Assembly: GCA_022703295.1 (NCBI GenBank)
Contig: JAKLDX010000001.1
Location: forward strand, 1-37,600
Length of the DNA: 37,600 nucleotides
Origin: Candidatus Omnitrophota bacterium
GTDB lineage: Bacteria; Omnitrophota; Gorgyraeia; 2-01-FULL-45-10
Direction: 5' to 3'
Made by a program: the position numbers and the translations under genes. Below are positions 958 through 3,923 of this stretch, one piece after another; positions within the stretch are counted from its first letter, which is position 1, and each line of letters starts with the position of its first letter. Under the pieces are notes generated by a model. It was not told where the DNA came from and made no database searches. It saw only the letters and a program-made list of their open reading frames with translations.

Positions 958-1006
958 TTTGTGGGTGTCCCTTTTTAGGACGGCCCCTATATCAAAAATG
1001 GCACAG
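958..1006 (+). repeat. Copy C of the ~45-nt GTCCC-hairpin repeat family, + orientation, immediately upstream of the island's first gene
   Basis: tttgtgggtgtccctttttaggac...caaaaatggcacag. The core TTGTG(GG)TGTCCCTTT..GGAC matches the reverse complement of 3904-3923. Confidence 0.5.
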
Positions 1007-1021
1007 TTTTGGAGATAAAAG

Positions 1022-1774
1022 ATGTACCCGTATGATTTCTTTACACAATATCGCGTAGATCAATTGGTAGATCAAGTATTTGTAGGAATGTGGTTTGATC
1101 AAGAGCATAAACCACGTTATGATAACGTAATCGTTAAGGCTATAAAAAACGCTAACCTAAAACCTTATCGCGTTGATCAGCCAGTTTCAGGAGACTCAAT
1201 CCCAATAAATATATTACAGGGAATATTGAATTCGAAAATTGTGTTATTCGATGTTTCATATATAACATCCGAGATTTCGATTTCACCCTCTGTTAAAAAG
1301 AGGTTTCGTAATGCAAACGTTATGTACGAATTAGGGCTAGCGCATGCATGGAGACTACCGGAAGAAATTATTGTAATAAGAGATGATGAAGATTCTCTTC
1401 CCTTTGATGTCACCACATTCAGAGCTCATAAATATGATTTTAACAACGTAGATAGTTCAATAAACCAATTATCAAAAGTTATAACGGATTCTTTCTCGGA
1501 AATTAATAGAGCTAAGTCATTAATGGTAGAAAGGGCAGCGAAATCGCTAGATTCTCGATGCATTAATTTTATTTTTAGTAACCGAGGAAGATATTTCAGC
1601 GAAACTAAGTATGATCCTGTCACCGCGAATATTATCAACAGGCTTCTTGATCTCAGAATTTTGTGGATAGACACTTCTGGCGGTGGGGGATCCTATGCTT
1701 ACCATTGGACAGAACTTGGAAGAGATGTAATTAAATATCATAAGATAGAGCCATGCCCTAAAAACGAGTCATAA
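1022..1774 (+). CDS. TIR-like / nucleoside 2-deoxyribosyltransferase-like (Rossmannoid) domain protein with a C-terminal wHTH-like region
   Basis: 250-aa ORF with GGAG 7 nt upstream of the ATG. The N-terminal strand QVFVGMWF, then SKIVLFDVS, then RNANVMYELGLAHA match the R-x-NV-[FY]-E-L-G pattern of TIR-like (COG4271/PF10137-type) and NDT-like domains. The C-terminal ~80 aa (ANIINRLLDLRILWID..GGGGSYAYHWTELGRDVIKY) look like helix plus wing. AT-rich codon usage. Motif recognition only. Confidence 0.6.
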   Translation: MYPYDFFTQYRVDQLVDQVFVGMWFDQEHKPRYDNVIVKAIKNANLKPYRVDQPVSGDSIPINILQGILNSKIVLFDVSYITSEISISPSVKKRFRNANVMYELGLAHAWRLPEEIIVIRDDEDSLPFDVTTFRAHKYDFNNVDSSINQLSKVITDSFSEINRAKSLMVERAAKSLDSRCINFIFSNRGRYFSETKYDPVTANIINRLLDLRILWIDTSGGGGSYAYHWTELGRDVIKYHKIEPCPKNES

Positions 1775-1775
1775 C

Positions 1776-2876
1776 ATGGTAAAACCTCCAATTAAGCTTG
1801 CGGTAGGAAGAATACAAGAATATAACAAAAACACGTTTATAAAGCGCCTATTGAATATTGGCATTGTGGGTCTTATAATCGTTTTGTTTTTATTTTTTGT
1901 GTACAAACTTATACCAAATCCATATTTATGTTATGGCTATAAGCCAATAAAGATAGGTAAACAACCGATCGAGTTTGACTGGGCAGGGGATTCTTATCAA
2001 TGTCGTTTTGGTATTGCAAATTCTGGAGTTTTTGACGTAAAAAATCCTATACTGCAAATATACTTTATTGACGGTGCTGATGTTAAGCCTGTTTCAAATA
2101 ATACAGAGTGGCAAAGGAATGATGAAGCAAATTATTTTTGGTCGAAAAATATTACTATTCATGGTGGAATCAAAAGCGTTGATTTGGCGGAACGTGCTCA
2201 AGCTATAAACGTCAAATTTAACAATAACGGTTTAAATAGAATAAAATATATTATAACATCGAACGGAATACAAAAAAGAGGCACGATAAATGTTATTAAT
2301 TCACATGGATCCGATAAAGTGTCCCAAGATGCAATTGAAATAGCAAAAAAGACAGAATGGCCATATTTTAAACTTAGGTTAAATTTTGATAACAATCAAG
2401 ATGAAATACAGATTTATAATGAAGGAGGAAAATTTAGAGAGCTGAATACCGAGGTGTATTTATTTTGGAGTATAACGTCTGATAAAACTTTGCTTAACCC
2501 AAAGGATATAGCGGTTCTAAACTATTACAATCTTAGCTCCATAGATTCACTTCTTTCGGGTAGTAAGCCCATAACAATATCTGCTGCAGACCCTGCAAAG
2601 GCGACAGACCTCATTGATGGGTTTAAAAAATTGGCAAAGGAAAAAGGTTTTTTAGCATTTATATCAGCAAAGAGATATGTTCGCATGCAATATAAAGATA
2701 TATATGATGAATCGCACGATGATTTTTACAGCCTAGATAAGATTGGGGGTAAGAAGATGTCAAAAAATGAAGCCACAGAAATGATGAAAATATATAATCA
2801 GGCAAGAGATCAGAATATGGTTATAGATATGCTAACCACATCATCGGAAATTTTATATGAGAAATGGCAACATTAG
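1776..2876 (+). CDS. Single-pass (N-in) membrane protein with a ~320-aa domain of unknown function
   Basis: 366-aa ORF starting 1 nt after the stop of the upstream gene. A basic N-terminus is followed by the hydrophobic helix LLNIGIVGLIIVLFLFFVYKLI. The remainder has no motif I recognise; the first part looks beta-rich. Confidence 0.6.
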   Translation: MVKPPIKLAVGRIQEYNKNTFIKRLLNIGIVGLIIVLFLFFVYKLIPNPYLCYGYKPIKIGKQPIEFDWAGDSYQCRFGIANSGVFDVKNPILQIYFIDGADVKPVSNNTEWQRNDEANYFWSKNITIHGGIKSVDLAERAQAINVKFNNNGLNRIKYIITSNGIQKRGTINVINSHGSDKVSQDAIEIAKKTEWPYFKLRLNFDNNQDEIQIYNEGGKFRELNTEVYLFWSITSDKTLLNPKDIAVLNYYNLSSIDSLLSGSKPITISAADPAKATDLIDGFKKLAKEKGFLAFISAKRYVRMQYKDIYDESHDDFYSLDKIGGKKMSKNEATEMMKIYNQARDQNMVIDMLTTSSEILYEKWQH

Positions 2877-2917
2877 AATATGGGGGGCGGCGGTTCCGGA
2901 TGCAATCCCAGACCTAT

Positions 2918-2960
2918 CCCCGAAATTAATTGAGAACATGTCAAAAAGGAACACACAATT
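2918..2960 (-). repeat. Degenerate copy R2 of the GTCCC-hairpin repeat family, - orientation, just downstream of the membrane-protein gene
   Basis: ccccgaaattaattgagaaCATGTCaaaaaggaACACACAAtt aligns with taattttgggatCATGTCcgaaagggACACACAAg at 3889-3923. Identity is about 75% over ~35 nt by eye, and the hairpin is eroded. Confidence 0.45.
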
Positions 2961-3036
2961 TTAATAGAGTGCCCCCCAAAGTGACACGTCTCCTGTATAC
3001 GATAAATAGTCGTTGCACCCTAAAACGGTTAAAAAT

Positions 3037-3870
3037 ATGAATACTTTATATAAGTATTGTGATCGGGCAGGTATTGTAAATATCTTGGGGTTGTTAGAAT
3101 TAAAATTGCCATATGTCGCTGAAGTCAATGATCCGTTTGAATGTTTGCCAATATTTGACTGCAAAAATGATTTATCCGCTATTAAAGCACGATGTTTATT
3201 AGCATTCAAACGTAAAAATGTAGACCCGCTATCAAATTTTGACGAAAAAGTTAAAGAAGAATTCGGAAAAGGTGATATTCAAAAAAAGCTTAAACAGATT
3301 TCGCGAGAAAATCAAAATGAGTGGAATCAAAAAAGAAGTTGCCTGATATCTGTTTCAAAGACCGCGCAAAATACTGTTATGTGGGCTCATTATGCTGAAA
3401 AACACAAGGGAGCGGTTATTGGAATTGATTTTGATATAATTCTTCAAAGACGAAACAGCCCATATGGTATTGTGATGGACCCTGTTAGTTATTCTAAAAA
3501 TAGGCCTCGAATAGATATTTTGGTTGATCCCGATAGTAAAATCTGGGGCGACCAATTCATAAAACTATTGCTAACTAAATCAGATAATTGGAGTTATGAA
3601 AAAGAATATCGCACGGTTTTTCTGGATCATTCTTTAGAAGAGTTCCGGAAACAAGGACTAGCTAGCGTCAAAGACTTCGATGGCAAGAAAACATGGTTTT
3701 TGCGACTCAACCCATTATCAATAAAAGAAATCGTTTTTGGTTTATATATGGAAGACGATATAAAAATAGCTATTAGAAAATCACTAAAACGTCCAGAATT
3801 ACAGCATGTAAAATTGTATCAAGCTATGGAATCAGAAACATATATTCTTAATTTGATCGATCTATCATAG
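3037..3870 (+). CDS. DUF2971-family protein
   Basis: The ORF is open from TTG 3013; ATG 3037 (MNTLYKY...) is the more likely start. Family hallmarks are LYKYCD..GIVNIL...LKLPYVAEVNDPFE, MWAHYAEKHKGAVIGIDF and TKSDNWSYEKEYR. AT-rich like the two genes upstream. Confidence 0.65.
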   Translation: MNTLYKYCDRAGIVNILGLLELKLPYVAEVNDPFECLPIFDCKNDLSAIKARCLLAFKRKNVDPLSNFDEKVKEEFGKGDIQKKLKQISRENQNEWNQKRSCLISVSKTAQNTVMWAHYAEKHKGAVIGIDFDIILQRRNSPYGIVMDPVSYSKNRPRIDILVDPDSKIWGDQFIKLLLTKSDNWSYEKEYRTVFLDHSLEEFRKQGLASVKDFDGKKTWFLRLNPLSIKEIVFGLYMEDDIKIAIRKSLKRPELQHVKLYQAMESETYILNLIDLS

Positions 3871-3875
3871 AAACA

Positions 3876-3923
3876 GGGGGTGGCCAAGTAATTTTGGGAT
3901 CATGTCCGAAAGGGACACACAAG
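3876..3923 (-). repeat. Copy R3 of the GTCCC-hairpin repeat family, - orientation, just downstream of the DUF2971 gene
   Basis: The reverse complement reads CTTGTGTGTCCCTTTCGGACATGATCCCAAAATTACTTGGCCACCCCC. It contains a GTCC-GAAA-GGAC hairpin and sits in inverted orientation relative to copies A and C. Confidence 0.5.

What the first reader, a model, noticed from the sequence alone, without database searches (positions are those of the whole stretch)
958..3923. AT-rich three-gene island beside tRNA-Val: candidate undescribed conflict/defence locus
What the sequence shows: three same-strand ORFs (1022-1774, 1776-2876, 3037-3870) are much more AT-rich than the rest of the window. My hand counts of sampled 60-nt lines give ~23-35% GC here, against ~50% in the glycosylation genes. 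The block starts ~700 nt downstream of a tRNA-Val and is bracketed by inverted copies of a repeat.

Content: a TIR-like/NDT-like protein, a membrane protein of unknown function and a DUF2971 protein. None of these fits the surrounding envelope and energy-metabolism themes.

Established knowledge: tRNA-adjacent, compositionally deviant islands are typical landing sites for horizontally acquired defence genes. TIR and NDT-like Rossmannoid domains are recurrent nucleotide/NAD-processing components of Thoeris, CBASS/Pycsar effectors and related systems.

Inference: this gene combination lacks ThsA, a cyclase, an ATPase and a nuclease. I do not recognise it as any named system.
Basis: partly seen in the sequence, partly recalled or inferred. 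Interest (0 to 1): 0.8.

Follow-up and report, generated by a model that had tools for sequence, protein, structure and literature searches.

The report
Two phage-defence modules in AT-rich islet
A 3-kb foreign-looking DNA islet carries two separate candidate anti-virus modules: a rare, undescribed gene pair (a predicted NAD-destroying TIR enzyme plus a membrane protein that faces outward) and an ordinary member of the DUF2971 family, which has one experimentally validated anti-phage member.

Summary
Window 958-3923 has 35.0% GC against 48.4% elsewhere (GC3 27-30% vs 53-64%). It contains three same-strand ORFs and is bracketed by inverted copies of a hairpin motif (expected 0.03 by chance).

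- **ORF1** (1022-1774) has a TIR domain of the Cap12/Pycsar-effector class plus a C-terminal winged helix. Its invariant N99, E103 and D129 align with SfSTING N80, catalytic E84 and trans-acting D110.
- **ORF2** (1776-2876) fuses two modules: a single-pass membrane anchor with a beta-sandwich, and an uncharacterised domain that elsewhere occurs as separate membrane-anchored proteins.
- **The pair:** the ORF1 clade and the ORF2 N module are adjacent, usually within 0-12 nt, in all 8 loci found. In two proteins the same N module is fused to DUF4062/NIR, a different TIR-like NADase.
- **ORF3** (3037-3870) is DUF2971 (PADLOC PDC-S31, Aristaios-like). It is absent from the seven other pair loci, so I treat it as an independent single-gene module.

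Best model: ORF1 is an oligomerisation-activated NADase effector, regulated or triggered by its membrane partner. The main rival is a Thoeris-like system in which the TIR makes a signal and the membrane protein is the effector. No function was tested here.

The parts
958..3923 (.). AT-rich islet (35.0% GC vs 48.4% elsewhere) holding the three ORFs
965..981 (+). Left copy of hairpin motif GTGTCCC-N-GGAC, inverted relative to the copy at 3904-3918
   Evidence: 3 matches in the window, 0.03 expected
1022..1774 (+). ORF1, 250 aa. TIR-like domain (about aa 16-140, nt 1067-1441) of the Cap12/Pycsar-effector class, then a long helix and a winged-helix domain (about aa 176-240, nt 1547-1741). N99, E103 and D129 are invariant.
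1776..2306 (+). ORF2 N module (aa 1-177): basic N-terminal tail with invariant G11, one TM helix (about aa 25-46), and an all-beta domain predicted to be extracytoplasmic. This is the conserved partner of ORF1. It starts 1 nt after the ORF1 stop.
2307..2876 (+). ORF2 C module (aa 178-366): an uncharacterised domain that elsewhere occurs as stand-alone 220-270-aa proteins with their own N-terminal membrane anchor. It is fused to the N module only here and in L007.
2930..2958 (+). Degenerate copy of the hairpin repeat between ORF2 and ORF3; 29-nt direct repeat (83%) of 3894-3922
3037..3870 (+). ORF3, 277 aa: DUF2971 / PADLOC PDC-S31, a predicted ADP-ribosyltransferase-like single-gene module (Aristaios-like)
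   Evidence: PMC11381338, PMC12522546
3904..3918 (-). Right copy of the hairpin motif, inverted relative to 965-981
601..615 (+). Third copy of the hairpin motif, next to the tRNA-Asp fragment
630..662 (-). 33-nt fragment matching the 3' end and trailer of a tRNA-Asp gene (91% to the tRNA-Asp of L093); possibly a scar of an earlier rearrangement or integration
230..306 (+). tRNA-Val(GAC), upstream landmark

Best explanation
The block is a small, horizontally acquired defence islet with two independent modules.

**Module A: ORF1 + ORF2, a two-gene system.**
- ORF1 is a cytosolic TIR-domain enzyme of the Cap12/Pycsar-effector class with a C-terminal winged-helix domain. I infer that it destroys NAD+ when TIR domains pack together and the Asp of one subunit completes the active site of its neighbour, as in TIR-STING filaments. 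Infected cells would then stop growing (abortive infection).
- ORF2 is a single-pass membrane protein with a short, conserved cytosolic tail. Its beta-sandwich, and here an extra C-terminal domain, are predicted to lie outside the cytoplasm. I infer that it holds ORF1 in check or activates it in response to an event at the envelope, such as phage adsorption or DNA entry.

**Module B: ORF3.** A stand-alone DUF2971 protein, predicted to be an ADP-ribosyltransferase. It is of the same kind as PADLOC PDC-S31 and the validated Aristaios system.

**Shown here**
- Composition of the block.
- Domain assignments.
- Conservation of the catalytic residues.
- 8/8 synteny of the pair.
- The DUF4062 fusion.
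- Independence of ORF3.

**Inferred**
- NADase activity.
- Membrane topology.
- The direction of signalling.
- The anti-phage role.
For: **ORF1 is a TIR domain with an intact active site**
- The AF2 model has pLDDT 89.
- The best PDB fold matches are TIR-STING (7un8, E = 4.7e-5; 9lmq, 9lmr), followed by RUN1, SARM1 and SPARTA TIRs.
- The best viral fold match is a Cap12/Pycsar TIR protein (2.4e-8).
- 60 of 107 family members give PF10137 hits.
- N99, E103 and D129 are invariant in 107 sequences. In the profile alignment to SfSTING they fall on N80, catalytic E84 and trans-acting D110, as defined in PMC9402430.
- The C-terminal domain has a helix-helix-wing secondary structure and weak but mutually consistent wHTH matches.

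**ORF1 and ORF2 are functionally linked**
- The N module of ORF2 follows an ORF1 homologue (57-83% identity) with a gap of -4 to +12 nt in the window, L004, L005, L006, L007, L090, L091 and L092. These are the only two genes the loci share.
- The identity matrices of the two proteins correlate (r = 0.55, Mantel p about 0.03).
- In P0122 and P0123 the same TM-beta module is fused behind a DUF4062 domain that scores above Pfam's gathering threshold. DUF4062/NIR is reported as an NAD+-depleting defence effector (bioRxiv 10.64898/2026.05.01.722283, 2026.06.25.731849, 2026.09.04.749371).

**Topology**
- There is one TM helix. K+R is richer on the N-terminal flank in 6 of 8 sequences and equal in the other 2.
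- The 180-aa DUF4062 domain precedes that one TM in the fusions, which places the beta domain outside.
- 39 of 40 stand-alone C modules carry their own N-terminal hydrophobic anchor.

**Defence and mobile context**
- L006: type I RM.
- L090: type III REase fragment; L092: ThsB-like TIR.
- L002: HsdR, Mrr, bSEFIR and AbiU.
- RM, Hma, AbiP2 and PDC-S02 hits among neighbours of 22 distant homologues.
- The pair is also AT-rich relative to its flanks in L091 and L092.

**ORF3**
- PF11185 at 42.8 bits (cut-off 22) and PDC-S31 at E = 3.6e-37.
- Relatives on 330 plasmids.
- Its own flanking repeats.
Against: - No function was measured.
- ORF1 itself does not reach any Pfam TIR threshold. Its PADLOC TIR hit is marginal (E = 0.0066).
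- NDT-like nucleotide hydrolases share the fold and the Glu motif, so the substrate could be something other than NAD+.
- The ORF2 model is poor (pLDDT 49). The beta-sandwich and its outside location rest on secondary structure, on low-confidence fold matches and on topological reasoning.
- More distant ORF1 relatives (49% identity or less) lack any conserved partner. ORF2 may therefore be an accessory rather than the sensor.
- The defence-neighbourhood evidence has no computed background rate.
- In L091 the pair sits among housekeeping genes.
Confidence: 0.55

Rival explanations
1. Thoeris-like signalling pair. ORF1 acts like ThsB: it senses infection and converts NAD+ into a small signal (a cADPR isomer or an ADPR conjugate). 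ORF2 is the membrane effector that oligomerises and breaches the membrane.
For: A 2025 survey lists 29 putative Thoeris types, several of which pair a TIR gene with a TM-helix effector (10.64898/2025.12.03.692087). The operon layout here matches: a TIR gene followed by a tightly coupled TM gene. L092 has a second, ThsB-like TIR next to the pair.
Against: - ORF1's TIR is nearest to the Cap12/Pycsar NAD+-depleting effector class, not to ThsB. No ThsB model hit ORF1.
- In the fusions the same TM-beta module is joined to DUF4062/NIR, which is so far known only as an NAD+ hydrolase effector.
- With one TM and N-in topology, ORF2 exposes only about 25 residues to the cytosol. That leaves no obvious ligand pocket.
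- Most ORF1 relatives are stand-alone genes.
Confidence: 0.2
2. One three-gene system: TIR-like + membrane protein + DUF2971 acting together.
For: The three genes are adjacent on the same strand and share the same deviant composition. One inverted repeat pair encloses all three.
Against: - DUF2971 is absent from all seven other pair loci.
- ORF3's closest relatives (58-63% identity) have unrelated neighbours.
- A 160-nt spacer carrying a repeat copy separates ORF2 from ORF3.
- PDC-S31 and Aristaios are single-gene systems (PMC11381338).
Confidence: 0.05
3. Not immunity. ORF1 is an NDT-like nucleoside/nucleotide N-glycosidase or a toxin of an addiction module, and ORF2 is an unrelated envelope protein or its antidote. 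The islet is selfish or metabolic cargo.
For: 25 of 107 family members hit Nuc_deoxyrib_tr. Viral fold matches include NDT and CMP hydrolases. TIR-like-domain relatives occur on 121 IMG/VR contigs. L004 carries a resolvase and an HTH gene nearby.
Against: - The trans-acting Asp (D129 = SfSTING D110) and N99 are invariant.
- The pair shows tight synteny and has a fusion with a known NADase domain.
- RM and Abi genes are frequent neighbours.
Confidence: 0.12

Closest known systems
Cap12 / TIR-STING and PycTIR effectors of CBASS and Pycsar (Pfam PF10137)
   Same: TIR fold. Motif NV-x-[YF]-E-x-G with the catalytic Glu. A conserved Asp at the position of the trans-acting D110. The predicted mode of action is oligomerisation-dependent NAD+ hydrolysis. 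A C-terminal non-catalytic domain follows the TIR domain.
   Different: No cyclase gene accompanies ORF1. The C-terminal domain is a winged helix rather than STING, SAVED or a cNMP-binding domain. The window protein is below Pfam thresholds. It has a dedicated membrane partner.
DUF4062/NIR NADase defence systems (Swarozyc, Evangelion, Vulcan, Vesta; 2026 preprints)
   Same: A small TIR-like NADase core joined to a variable auxiliary or sensor part, either single-gene or two-gene. The ORF2 N module is literally fused to DUF4062 in P0122 and P0123.
   Different: ORF1 is not DUF4062 (no Pfam hit, no hhalign similarity). None of the described systems, as far as I read, has a transmembrane partner with an ectodomain.
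Thoeris types with membrane effectors (II, V, VII) from the 2025 TIR survey
   Same: A two-gene operon of a TIR gene followed by a TM protein, in a defence-island setting.
   Different: The TIR class differs. The partner is single-pass with almost no cytosolic part. Fusion to an NADase effector domain argues that the TM module is not the effector.
Kiwa and Zorya (from my own knowledge, not tested here)
   Same: The logic of a membrane-embedded component that detects an envelope event, coupled to a cytosolic effector.
   Different: No sequence or fold relationship, and a different effector chemistry.
Aristaios / PADLOC PDC-S31 (DUF2971) for ORF3
   Same: A single gene of about 280-320 aa. DUF2971 covers the protein, with a predicted ART-like fold. 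It is carried on mobile DNA.
   Different: Only distant sequence relatives were seen here (at most about 31% identity to plasmid copies). The closeness to Aristaios itself was not measured.

Membership tests
TIR domain, Cap12/Pycsar-effector clade (PF10137) | TIR/flavodoxin-like fold | tested here: met
   AF2 pLDDT 89. Foldseek best hits are TIR-STING 7un8 (4.7e-5), 9lmq and 9lmr, then many other TIRs. BFVD best hit is a Cap12/Pycsar TIR protein at 2.4e-8.
TIR domain, Cap12/Pycsar-effector clade (PF10137) | Catalytic Glu on helix alpha-C plus NAD-contacting Asn and trans-acting Asp (SfSTING N80, E84, D110) | tested here: met
   N99, E103 and D129 are invariant in 107 sequences and align to N80, E84 and D110 (residue roles from PMC9402430).
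TIR domain, Cap12/Pycsar-effector clade (PF10137) | Score above Pfam's gathering threshold for PF10137 | tested here: not met
   The window protein has no PF10137 hit at E <= 1. 60 of 107 relatives give hits with best E = 9.5e-5.
TIR domain, Cap12/Pycsar-effector clade (PF10137) | Operon with a CD-NTase or pyrimidine cyclase | tested here: not met
   Only ORF1 and the ORF2 N module are shared by the 8 loci. PADLOC gives no cyclase hit in the islet.
TIR domain, Cap12/Pycsar-effector clade (PF10137) | NAD+ hydrolase activity | not testable with these tools
   Needs an enzyme assay.
Thoeris | ThsB-type TIR that produces a signal | tested here: inconclusive
   No ThsB model hits ORF1 at E <= 1. 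Signal production cannot be tested here.
Thoeris | Effector with a cytosolic signal-binding domain (SLOG, Macro, DUF2270, SLATT...) | tested here: not met
   ORF2 has no Pfam, PADLOC, NCBIfam or PHROG family. Its predicted cytosolic part is about 25 aa.
DUF4062/NIR systems | PF13271 domain in the NADase protein | tested here: not met
   ORF1 has no PF13271 hit and no hhalign similarity to P0122. The fused relatives P0122 and P0123 do meet it (34.0 and 31.4 bits against a cut-off of 24.7).
DUF2971 / PDC-S31 / Aristaios (ORF3) | PF11185 above threshold and a full-length PDC-S31 profile match | tested here: met
   42.8 bits against a cut-off of 22. PDLC04990 at E = 3.6e-37 over aa 7-279. phrog_1762 at 3.1e-44.
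DUF2971 / PDC-S31 / Aristaios (ORF3) | Acts as a single gene, with no conserved partner | tested here: met
   It is absent from the other pair loci. Relatives at 58-63% identity have different neighbours.
DUF2971 / PDC-S31 / Aristaios (ORF3) | ART catalytic motifs (conserved Tyr, ExE) and anti-phage activity | not tested
   'MWAHYA' and 'YEKEYR' can be read in the sequence, but I did not align them to the published motifs (PMC12522546). Activity needs an experiment.
tRNA-integrated genomic island | Integrase gene, and a direct repeat of the tRNA 3' end at the far border | tested here: not met
   There is no ORF over 105 aa other than the three genes between 1 and 4190. No tRNA-Val repeat was found. 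There is only an inverted tRNA-Asp 3' fragment at 630-662.

The most novel reading that the evidence does not exclude
The ORF2-type module is a true outside-in receptor. An extracytoplasmic Ig-like domain (here with an extra ectodomain) detects phage contact or envelope damage. It passes the signal through one TM helix and a conserved 20-residue cytosolic tail to a TIR-type NADase. That NADase is a separate protein in the pair form and is fused in the DUF4062 form. This would be a prokaryotic analogue of the Toll-like-receptor layout (ectodomain, TM, cytosolic TIR), in which the TIR partner can be swapped for a different NADase domain.
Probability: 0.25. Interest if true: 0.8.

Novelty: new variant of a known kind. 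Interest (0 to 1): 0.55.

Why it matters
TIR-type NADases are established abortive-infection effectors, and what differs between systems is how they are triggered. Known triggers are cytosolic: cyclic nucleotides, phage proteins or nucleic acids.

Here the same membrane-anchored, outward-facing module is paired with two unrelated NADase domains (a Cap12-like TIR and DUF4062/NIR). That is a concrete, testable candidate for envelope-level sensing wired to NAD+ depletion.

The pair is very rare. I found 8 loci plus 2 fusions, after a word-indexed search of 5.8 billion proteins, a full HMMER search of 1.84 billion cluster representatives and three contig scans. All are in uncultivated organisms, so surveys biased toward cultured bacteria would be likely to miss it.

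ORF3 adds little. It is one more member of a known candidate family.

Tried and rejected
- **Integron cassette idea** (AT-rich same-strand ORFs separated by hairpin repeats). I saw no GTTRRRY/RYYYAAC core sites by eye in 2877-3036, and there is no integrase-sized ORF nearby. I did not pursue it. No attC model was available.
- **Rfam scan of 1-4400.** Only the tRNA was found; all other hits were far below gathering scores.
- **PDB sequence searches.** ORF1 alone gave noise. The ORF2 N and C module profiles gave nothing.
- **ORF2 structure.** pLDDT was 49 with only 10 sequences. Its fold matches are all Ig-like beta-sandwiches but are not reliable.
- **NCBIfam.** No hits for any of the three proteins.
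- **ORF1 vs DUF4062.** hhalign found no similarity.
- **ORF2 N module in IMG/VR.** None found. The C-module alignment was too divergent for the locus scan.
- **Partner gene for distant ORF1 homologues.** None is conserved in 80 genome loci.
- **Promoter and terminator scan.** Promoter-like counts did not exceed shuffles (18 vs 14.6 +/- 3.6), and none of the terminator-like sites (8 vs 3.5 +/- 2.0) lies within the islet.
- **Host identification.** It failed.
- **A database oddity.** The 40-aa 'representative' of ORF2's 90% cluster (P0345) is unrelated in sequence. I treat it as a database artefact.

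
Full report

Yes. In 400-nt windows GC falls to 0.315-0.372 from about 1000 to 4000, and is 0.44-0.57 on both sides. 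Block 958-3923 is 35.0% GC against 48.4% for the rest of the window. It is the lowest 3-kb stretch in the 37.6 kb, about 3.7 SD below the mean. Third-codon-position GC is 0.27-0.30 for the three ORFs against 0.53-0.64 for nine flanking genes.

The ATG at 3037 for ORF3 matches the gene call on an identical metagenome contig. The 250-aa form of ORF1 is supported by homologues that align from residue 1.

tRNA-Val(GAC) is at 230-306.

The claimed bracketing repeat exists. GTGTCCC-N3-7-GGAC occurs at 965-981 (+) and 3904-3918 (-), with a third copy at 601-615. That is three matches against 0.03 expected. A degenerate copy at 2930-2958 makes a 29-nt direct repeat with 3894-3922, so ORF3 also has its own pair of flanking copies. 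Apart from one match in an unrelated locus (L034), the motif is confined to this genome's locus.

**2. How firm is the tRNA link?**

Weak. JGI contig L093 is 100% identical to window 412-5132, but upstream it carries tRNA-Asp(GTC) instead of tRNA-Val. Window 630-662 on the minus strand is a 33-nt copy of a tRNA-Asp 3' end plus trailer.

There is no integrase-sized ORF between the window start and the glycosyltransferase genes, and no direct repeat of the tRNA-Val 3' end. The site looks like a rearrangement-prone tRNA neighbourhood rich in palindromes. It is not a demonstrated att site.

**3. ORF1**

*Family.* It has 114 relatives in the large protein collection, almost all unnamed. It was found in 239 GTDB species genomes across bacteria and archaea, all at 49% identity or less to the window protein.

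*Sequence families.* The window protein itself has no significant Pfam hit. Among 107 aligned members, 60 touch PF10137 (Cap12/Pycsar-effector TIR), 25 touch Nuc_deoxyrib_tr and 19 touch TIR_2.

*Structure.* The AlphaFold model is confident (pLDDT 89.2). The best solved-structure matches are bacterial TIR-STING (7un8, 4.7e-5; 9lmq, 9lmr), followed by plant, animal and SPARTA TIR domains. The best viral match is annotated as a Cap12/Pycsar TIR protein (2.4e-8).

*Active site.* The alignment has five invariant residues: N99, E103, A107, R111 and D129. The family profile aligns '...NVMYELG...LPFD' with SfSTING '...NVVFEFG...LPTD'. The chain numbering is offset by 8 from the published numbering. 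[quoted passage not shown] Keeping the trans-acting Asp is the strongest hint that ORF1 works as an oligomerisation-gated NADase.

*C-terminal domain.* After the TIR domain come a 30-residue helix and a helix-helix-beta-hairpin-helix unit carrying a 'Y-x-Y-H-W-T-E-L-G' motif. A profile of this part gives weak but mutually consistent matches to winged-helix proteins: eS25, a plasmid wHTH, and AdcR/MarR, PadR, NsrR and HxlR-like proteins. I call it a winged helix with moderate confidence.

**4. ORF2 is a fusion of two modules**

Alignment with relatives shows two parts.

*N module (aa 1-177).* It has a basic tail with an invariant Gly, one TM helix, and an all-beta domain with many invariant positions.
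- It occurs as a separate 176-184-aa protein.
- It also forms the C-terminal part of P0122 and P0123. There it follows a DUF4062 domain that scores above Pfam's threshold.

*C module (aa 178-366).* It belongs to a family of roughly a hundred 50%-identity clusters of 220-270-aa proteins.
- 39 of 40 of these have their own N-terminal hydrophobic anchor.
- The family has no Pfam or PDB relative.
- The N+C fusion occurs only in the window (and the identical L093) and in L007, at 74% identity. It is therefore real, not an assembly error.

*Fold of the N module.* The ORF2 model is poor (pLDDT 49). It does show a long TM helix and then only beta strands up to residue 176. Its fold matches are all Ig-like sandwiches. 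A PKD/Ig-repeat surface protein weakly matches part of the N-module profile eight times. I treat 'Ig-like beta-sandwich' as likely but not established.

**5. The conserved unit is ORF1 + the ORF2 N module**

- Every locus in which I could find the N module has an ORF1 homologue (57-83% identity) immediately upstream, with a gap of -4 to +12 nt. These loci are the window, L004, L005, L006, L007 and L090, L091 and L092 from the metagenome scan.
- An all-against-all comparison of the genes in these loci finds no other shared gene.
- The pairwise identities of the two proteins are correlated (r = 0.55, Mantel p about 0.03).
- More distant ORF1 relatives lack the N and C modules. They also lack any conserved tightly linked neighbour. 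The broad family is therefore probably self-sufficient, and the membrane partner is a clade-specific addition.
- The N module is absent from IMG/VR. Relatives of the TIR-like domain occur on 121 viral contigs.

**6. Topology and direction of signalling (inference)**

- In the fusions, about 180 residues of DUF4062 without a signal peptide precede the single TM helix. The beta domain must then lie outside the cytoplasm.
- The N-terminal flank of the helix carries more Lys/Arg than the C-terminal flank in 6 of 8 sequences and the same number in the other 2.
- Free C modules carry their own anchor. This fits the fused C module being in the same outer compartment.
- The same membrane module is combined with two different NADase-type domains: a Cap12-like TIR in trans and DUF4062/NIR in cis. 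Three 2026 preprints describe NIR as an NAD+-hydrolysing defence effector. Swapping the enzyme while keeping the membrane module fits 'constant sensor or regulator, exchangeable effector'.
- From this I favour ORF1 as effector and ORF2 as membrane-side regulator or sensor.

**7. Main rival**

A 2025 survey describes many two-gene Thoeris types in which a TIR makes a signal and a TM protein kills the cell. The operon here has that shape.

Against it:
- ORF1's TIR class is the effector class, not ThsB.
- The fusion is to an NADase effector domain.
- ORF2 has a very small predicted cytosolic part.

I cannot exclude this rival, and metabolite analysis would decide it.

**8. Defence context**

For the pair:
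- Type I RM next door in L006.
- A type III restriction enzyme fragment in L090, and a ThsB-like TIR in L092.
- A resolvase and an HTH gene in L004.
- DUF2971 in the window.
- In L091 the pair, together with another TM-plus-beta protein, forms a 31% GC islet between biotin-synthesis genes and outer-membrane protein genes, in a 42% GC background.

For distant homologues:
- L002 holds HsdR, Mrr, bSEFIR and AbiU.
- Among 122 neighbours from 22 loci there are strong hits to type I RM subunits, Hma, AbiP2/DRT, PDC-S02 and a type II methylase.

I did not compute a background rate, so this is supportive rather than statistical.

**9. ORF3**

- It scores 42.8 bits on PF11185 DUF2971 (cut-off 22), matches four PADLOC PDC-S31 profiles (best 3.6e-37 over the full length) and matches phrog_1762 (3.1e-44).
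- It has more than 260 close relatives, all DUF2971. Distant copies occur on 330 plasmids and 10 phage records.
- DUF2971 is predicted to be a DarT/AbiGi-like ADP-ribosyltransferase (PMC12522546). A DUF2971 protein, Aristaios, protects Lactococcus against phages as a single gene (PMC11381338).
- The 63%-identical relative P0225 sits among a HerA-like ATPase and patatin, PLD and PIN-TPR genes. P0237 sits among housekeeping genes. Neither has ORF1 or ORF2 nearby.
- ORF3 is therefore an ordinary, independent member of a known candidate family.

**10. Verdict**

What is new is not a three-gene system. It is a rare two-gene module: a Cap12-like TIR with a winged helix, plus a membrane protein with a predicted ectodomain. 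I did not find it in PADLOC v2, Pfam, NCBIfam or the papers I read.

I class it as a new variant of a known kind (TIR-NADase abortive infection). A more interesting possibility is not excluded: that it senses events outside the cytoplasm. The host organism remains unidentified.

Noticed in passing
window 1-411 vs L093 1-409: JGI contig L093 is 100% identical to window 412-5132, but upstream of that point it carries tRNA-Asp(GTC) and a different gene instead of tRNA-Val. The two sequences diverge a few bases before the palindrome at 424-446. This could be strain variation or an assembly join at a repeat.
   Followed up: partly
window 630-662 (-): A 33-nt copy (91%) of the 3' end and trailer of that tRNA-Asp gene. 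It is in inverted orientation, is not detected as a tRNA, and lies next to a hairpin-motif copy. It may be a scar of an old integration or inversion.
   Followed up: partly
window 64-86, 424-446, 768-791; also 3-37 / 193-227: A 22-25-nt palindrome, GGGGGAAACC-N3-GGTTTCCCC, occurs three times about 350 nt apart (expected 0.01). In addition, a 35-nt direct repeat lies just upstream of the tRNA and again at the window start. This looks like a repeated tRNA-unit or REP-like architecture.
   Followed up: partly
P0124, P0128-P0223; L008 8001-8678; L009 2235-2963: The ORF2 C module defines an unannotated family of about 100 clusters of membrane-anchored 220-270-aa proteins with no Pfam or PDB relative. 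In L008 it lies between type ISP RM and HATPase genes and a ParB-methylase plus terminase. In L009 it is next to a large N6-methylase-type gene.
   Followed up: partly
L091 6334-7077; L009 3113-3850 and 3852-4400: Small proteins with an N-terminal TM helix followed by a beta-rich domain recur beside the pair and beside free C modules. They share the architecture of the ORF2 N module but have no detectable sequence similarity to it.
   Followed up: no
L092 9-872: A second TIR protein (TIR_2, weak ThsB hits) lies directly upstream of the ORF1-ORF2N pair in this locus.
   Followed up: no
window 4194-5474 and 5426-6733: Two tandem PMT_2-type glycosyltransferase paralogues (about 28% identity) whose ORFs overlap by 49 nt, directly downstream of the islet.
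   Followed up: no
window 1022-1087 / L093 1086: The JGI gene call for ORF1 starts 22 codons late (228 aa). Homologues conserve the sequence from the 1022 start.
   Followed up: yes
P0345 (cluster of ORF2): The 90%-identity cluster that holds ORF2 is represented by an unrelated 40-aa protein from a Sodalis-like endosymbiont. This appears to be a clustering artefact in the protein collection.
   Followed up: yes
L091 8866-10770 and 12447-14438: Two 76%-identical inverse-autotransporter/beta-helix paralogues flank an OMP gene just downstream of the pair islet.
   Followed up: no
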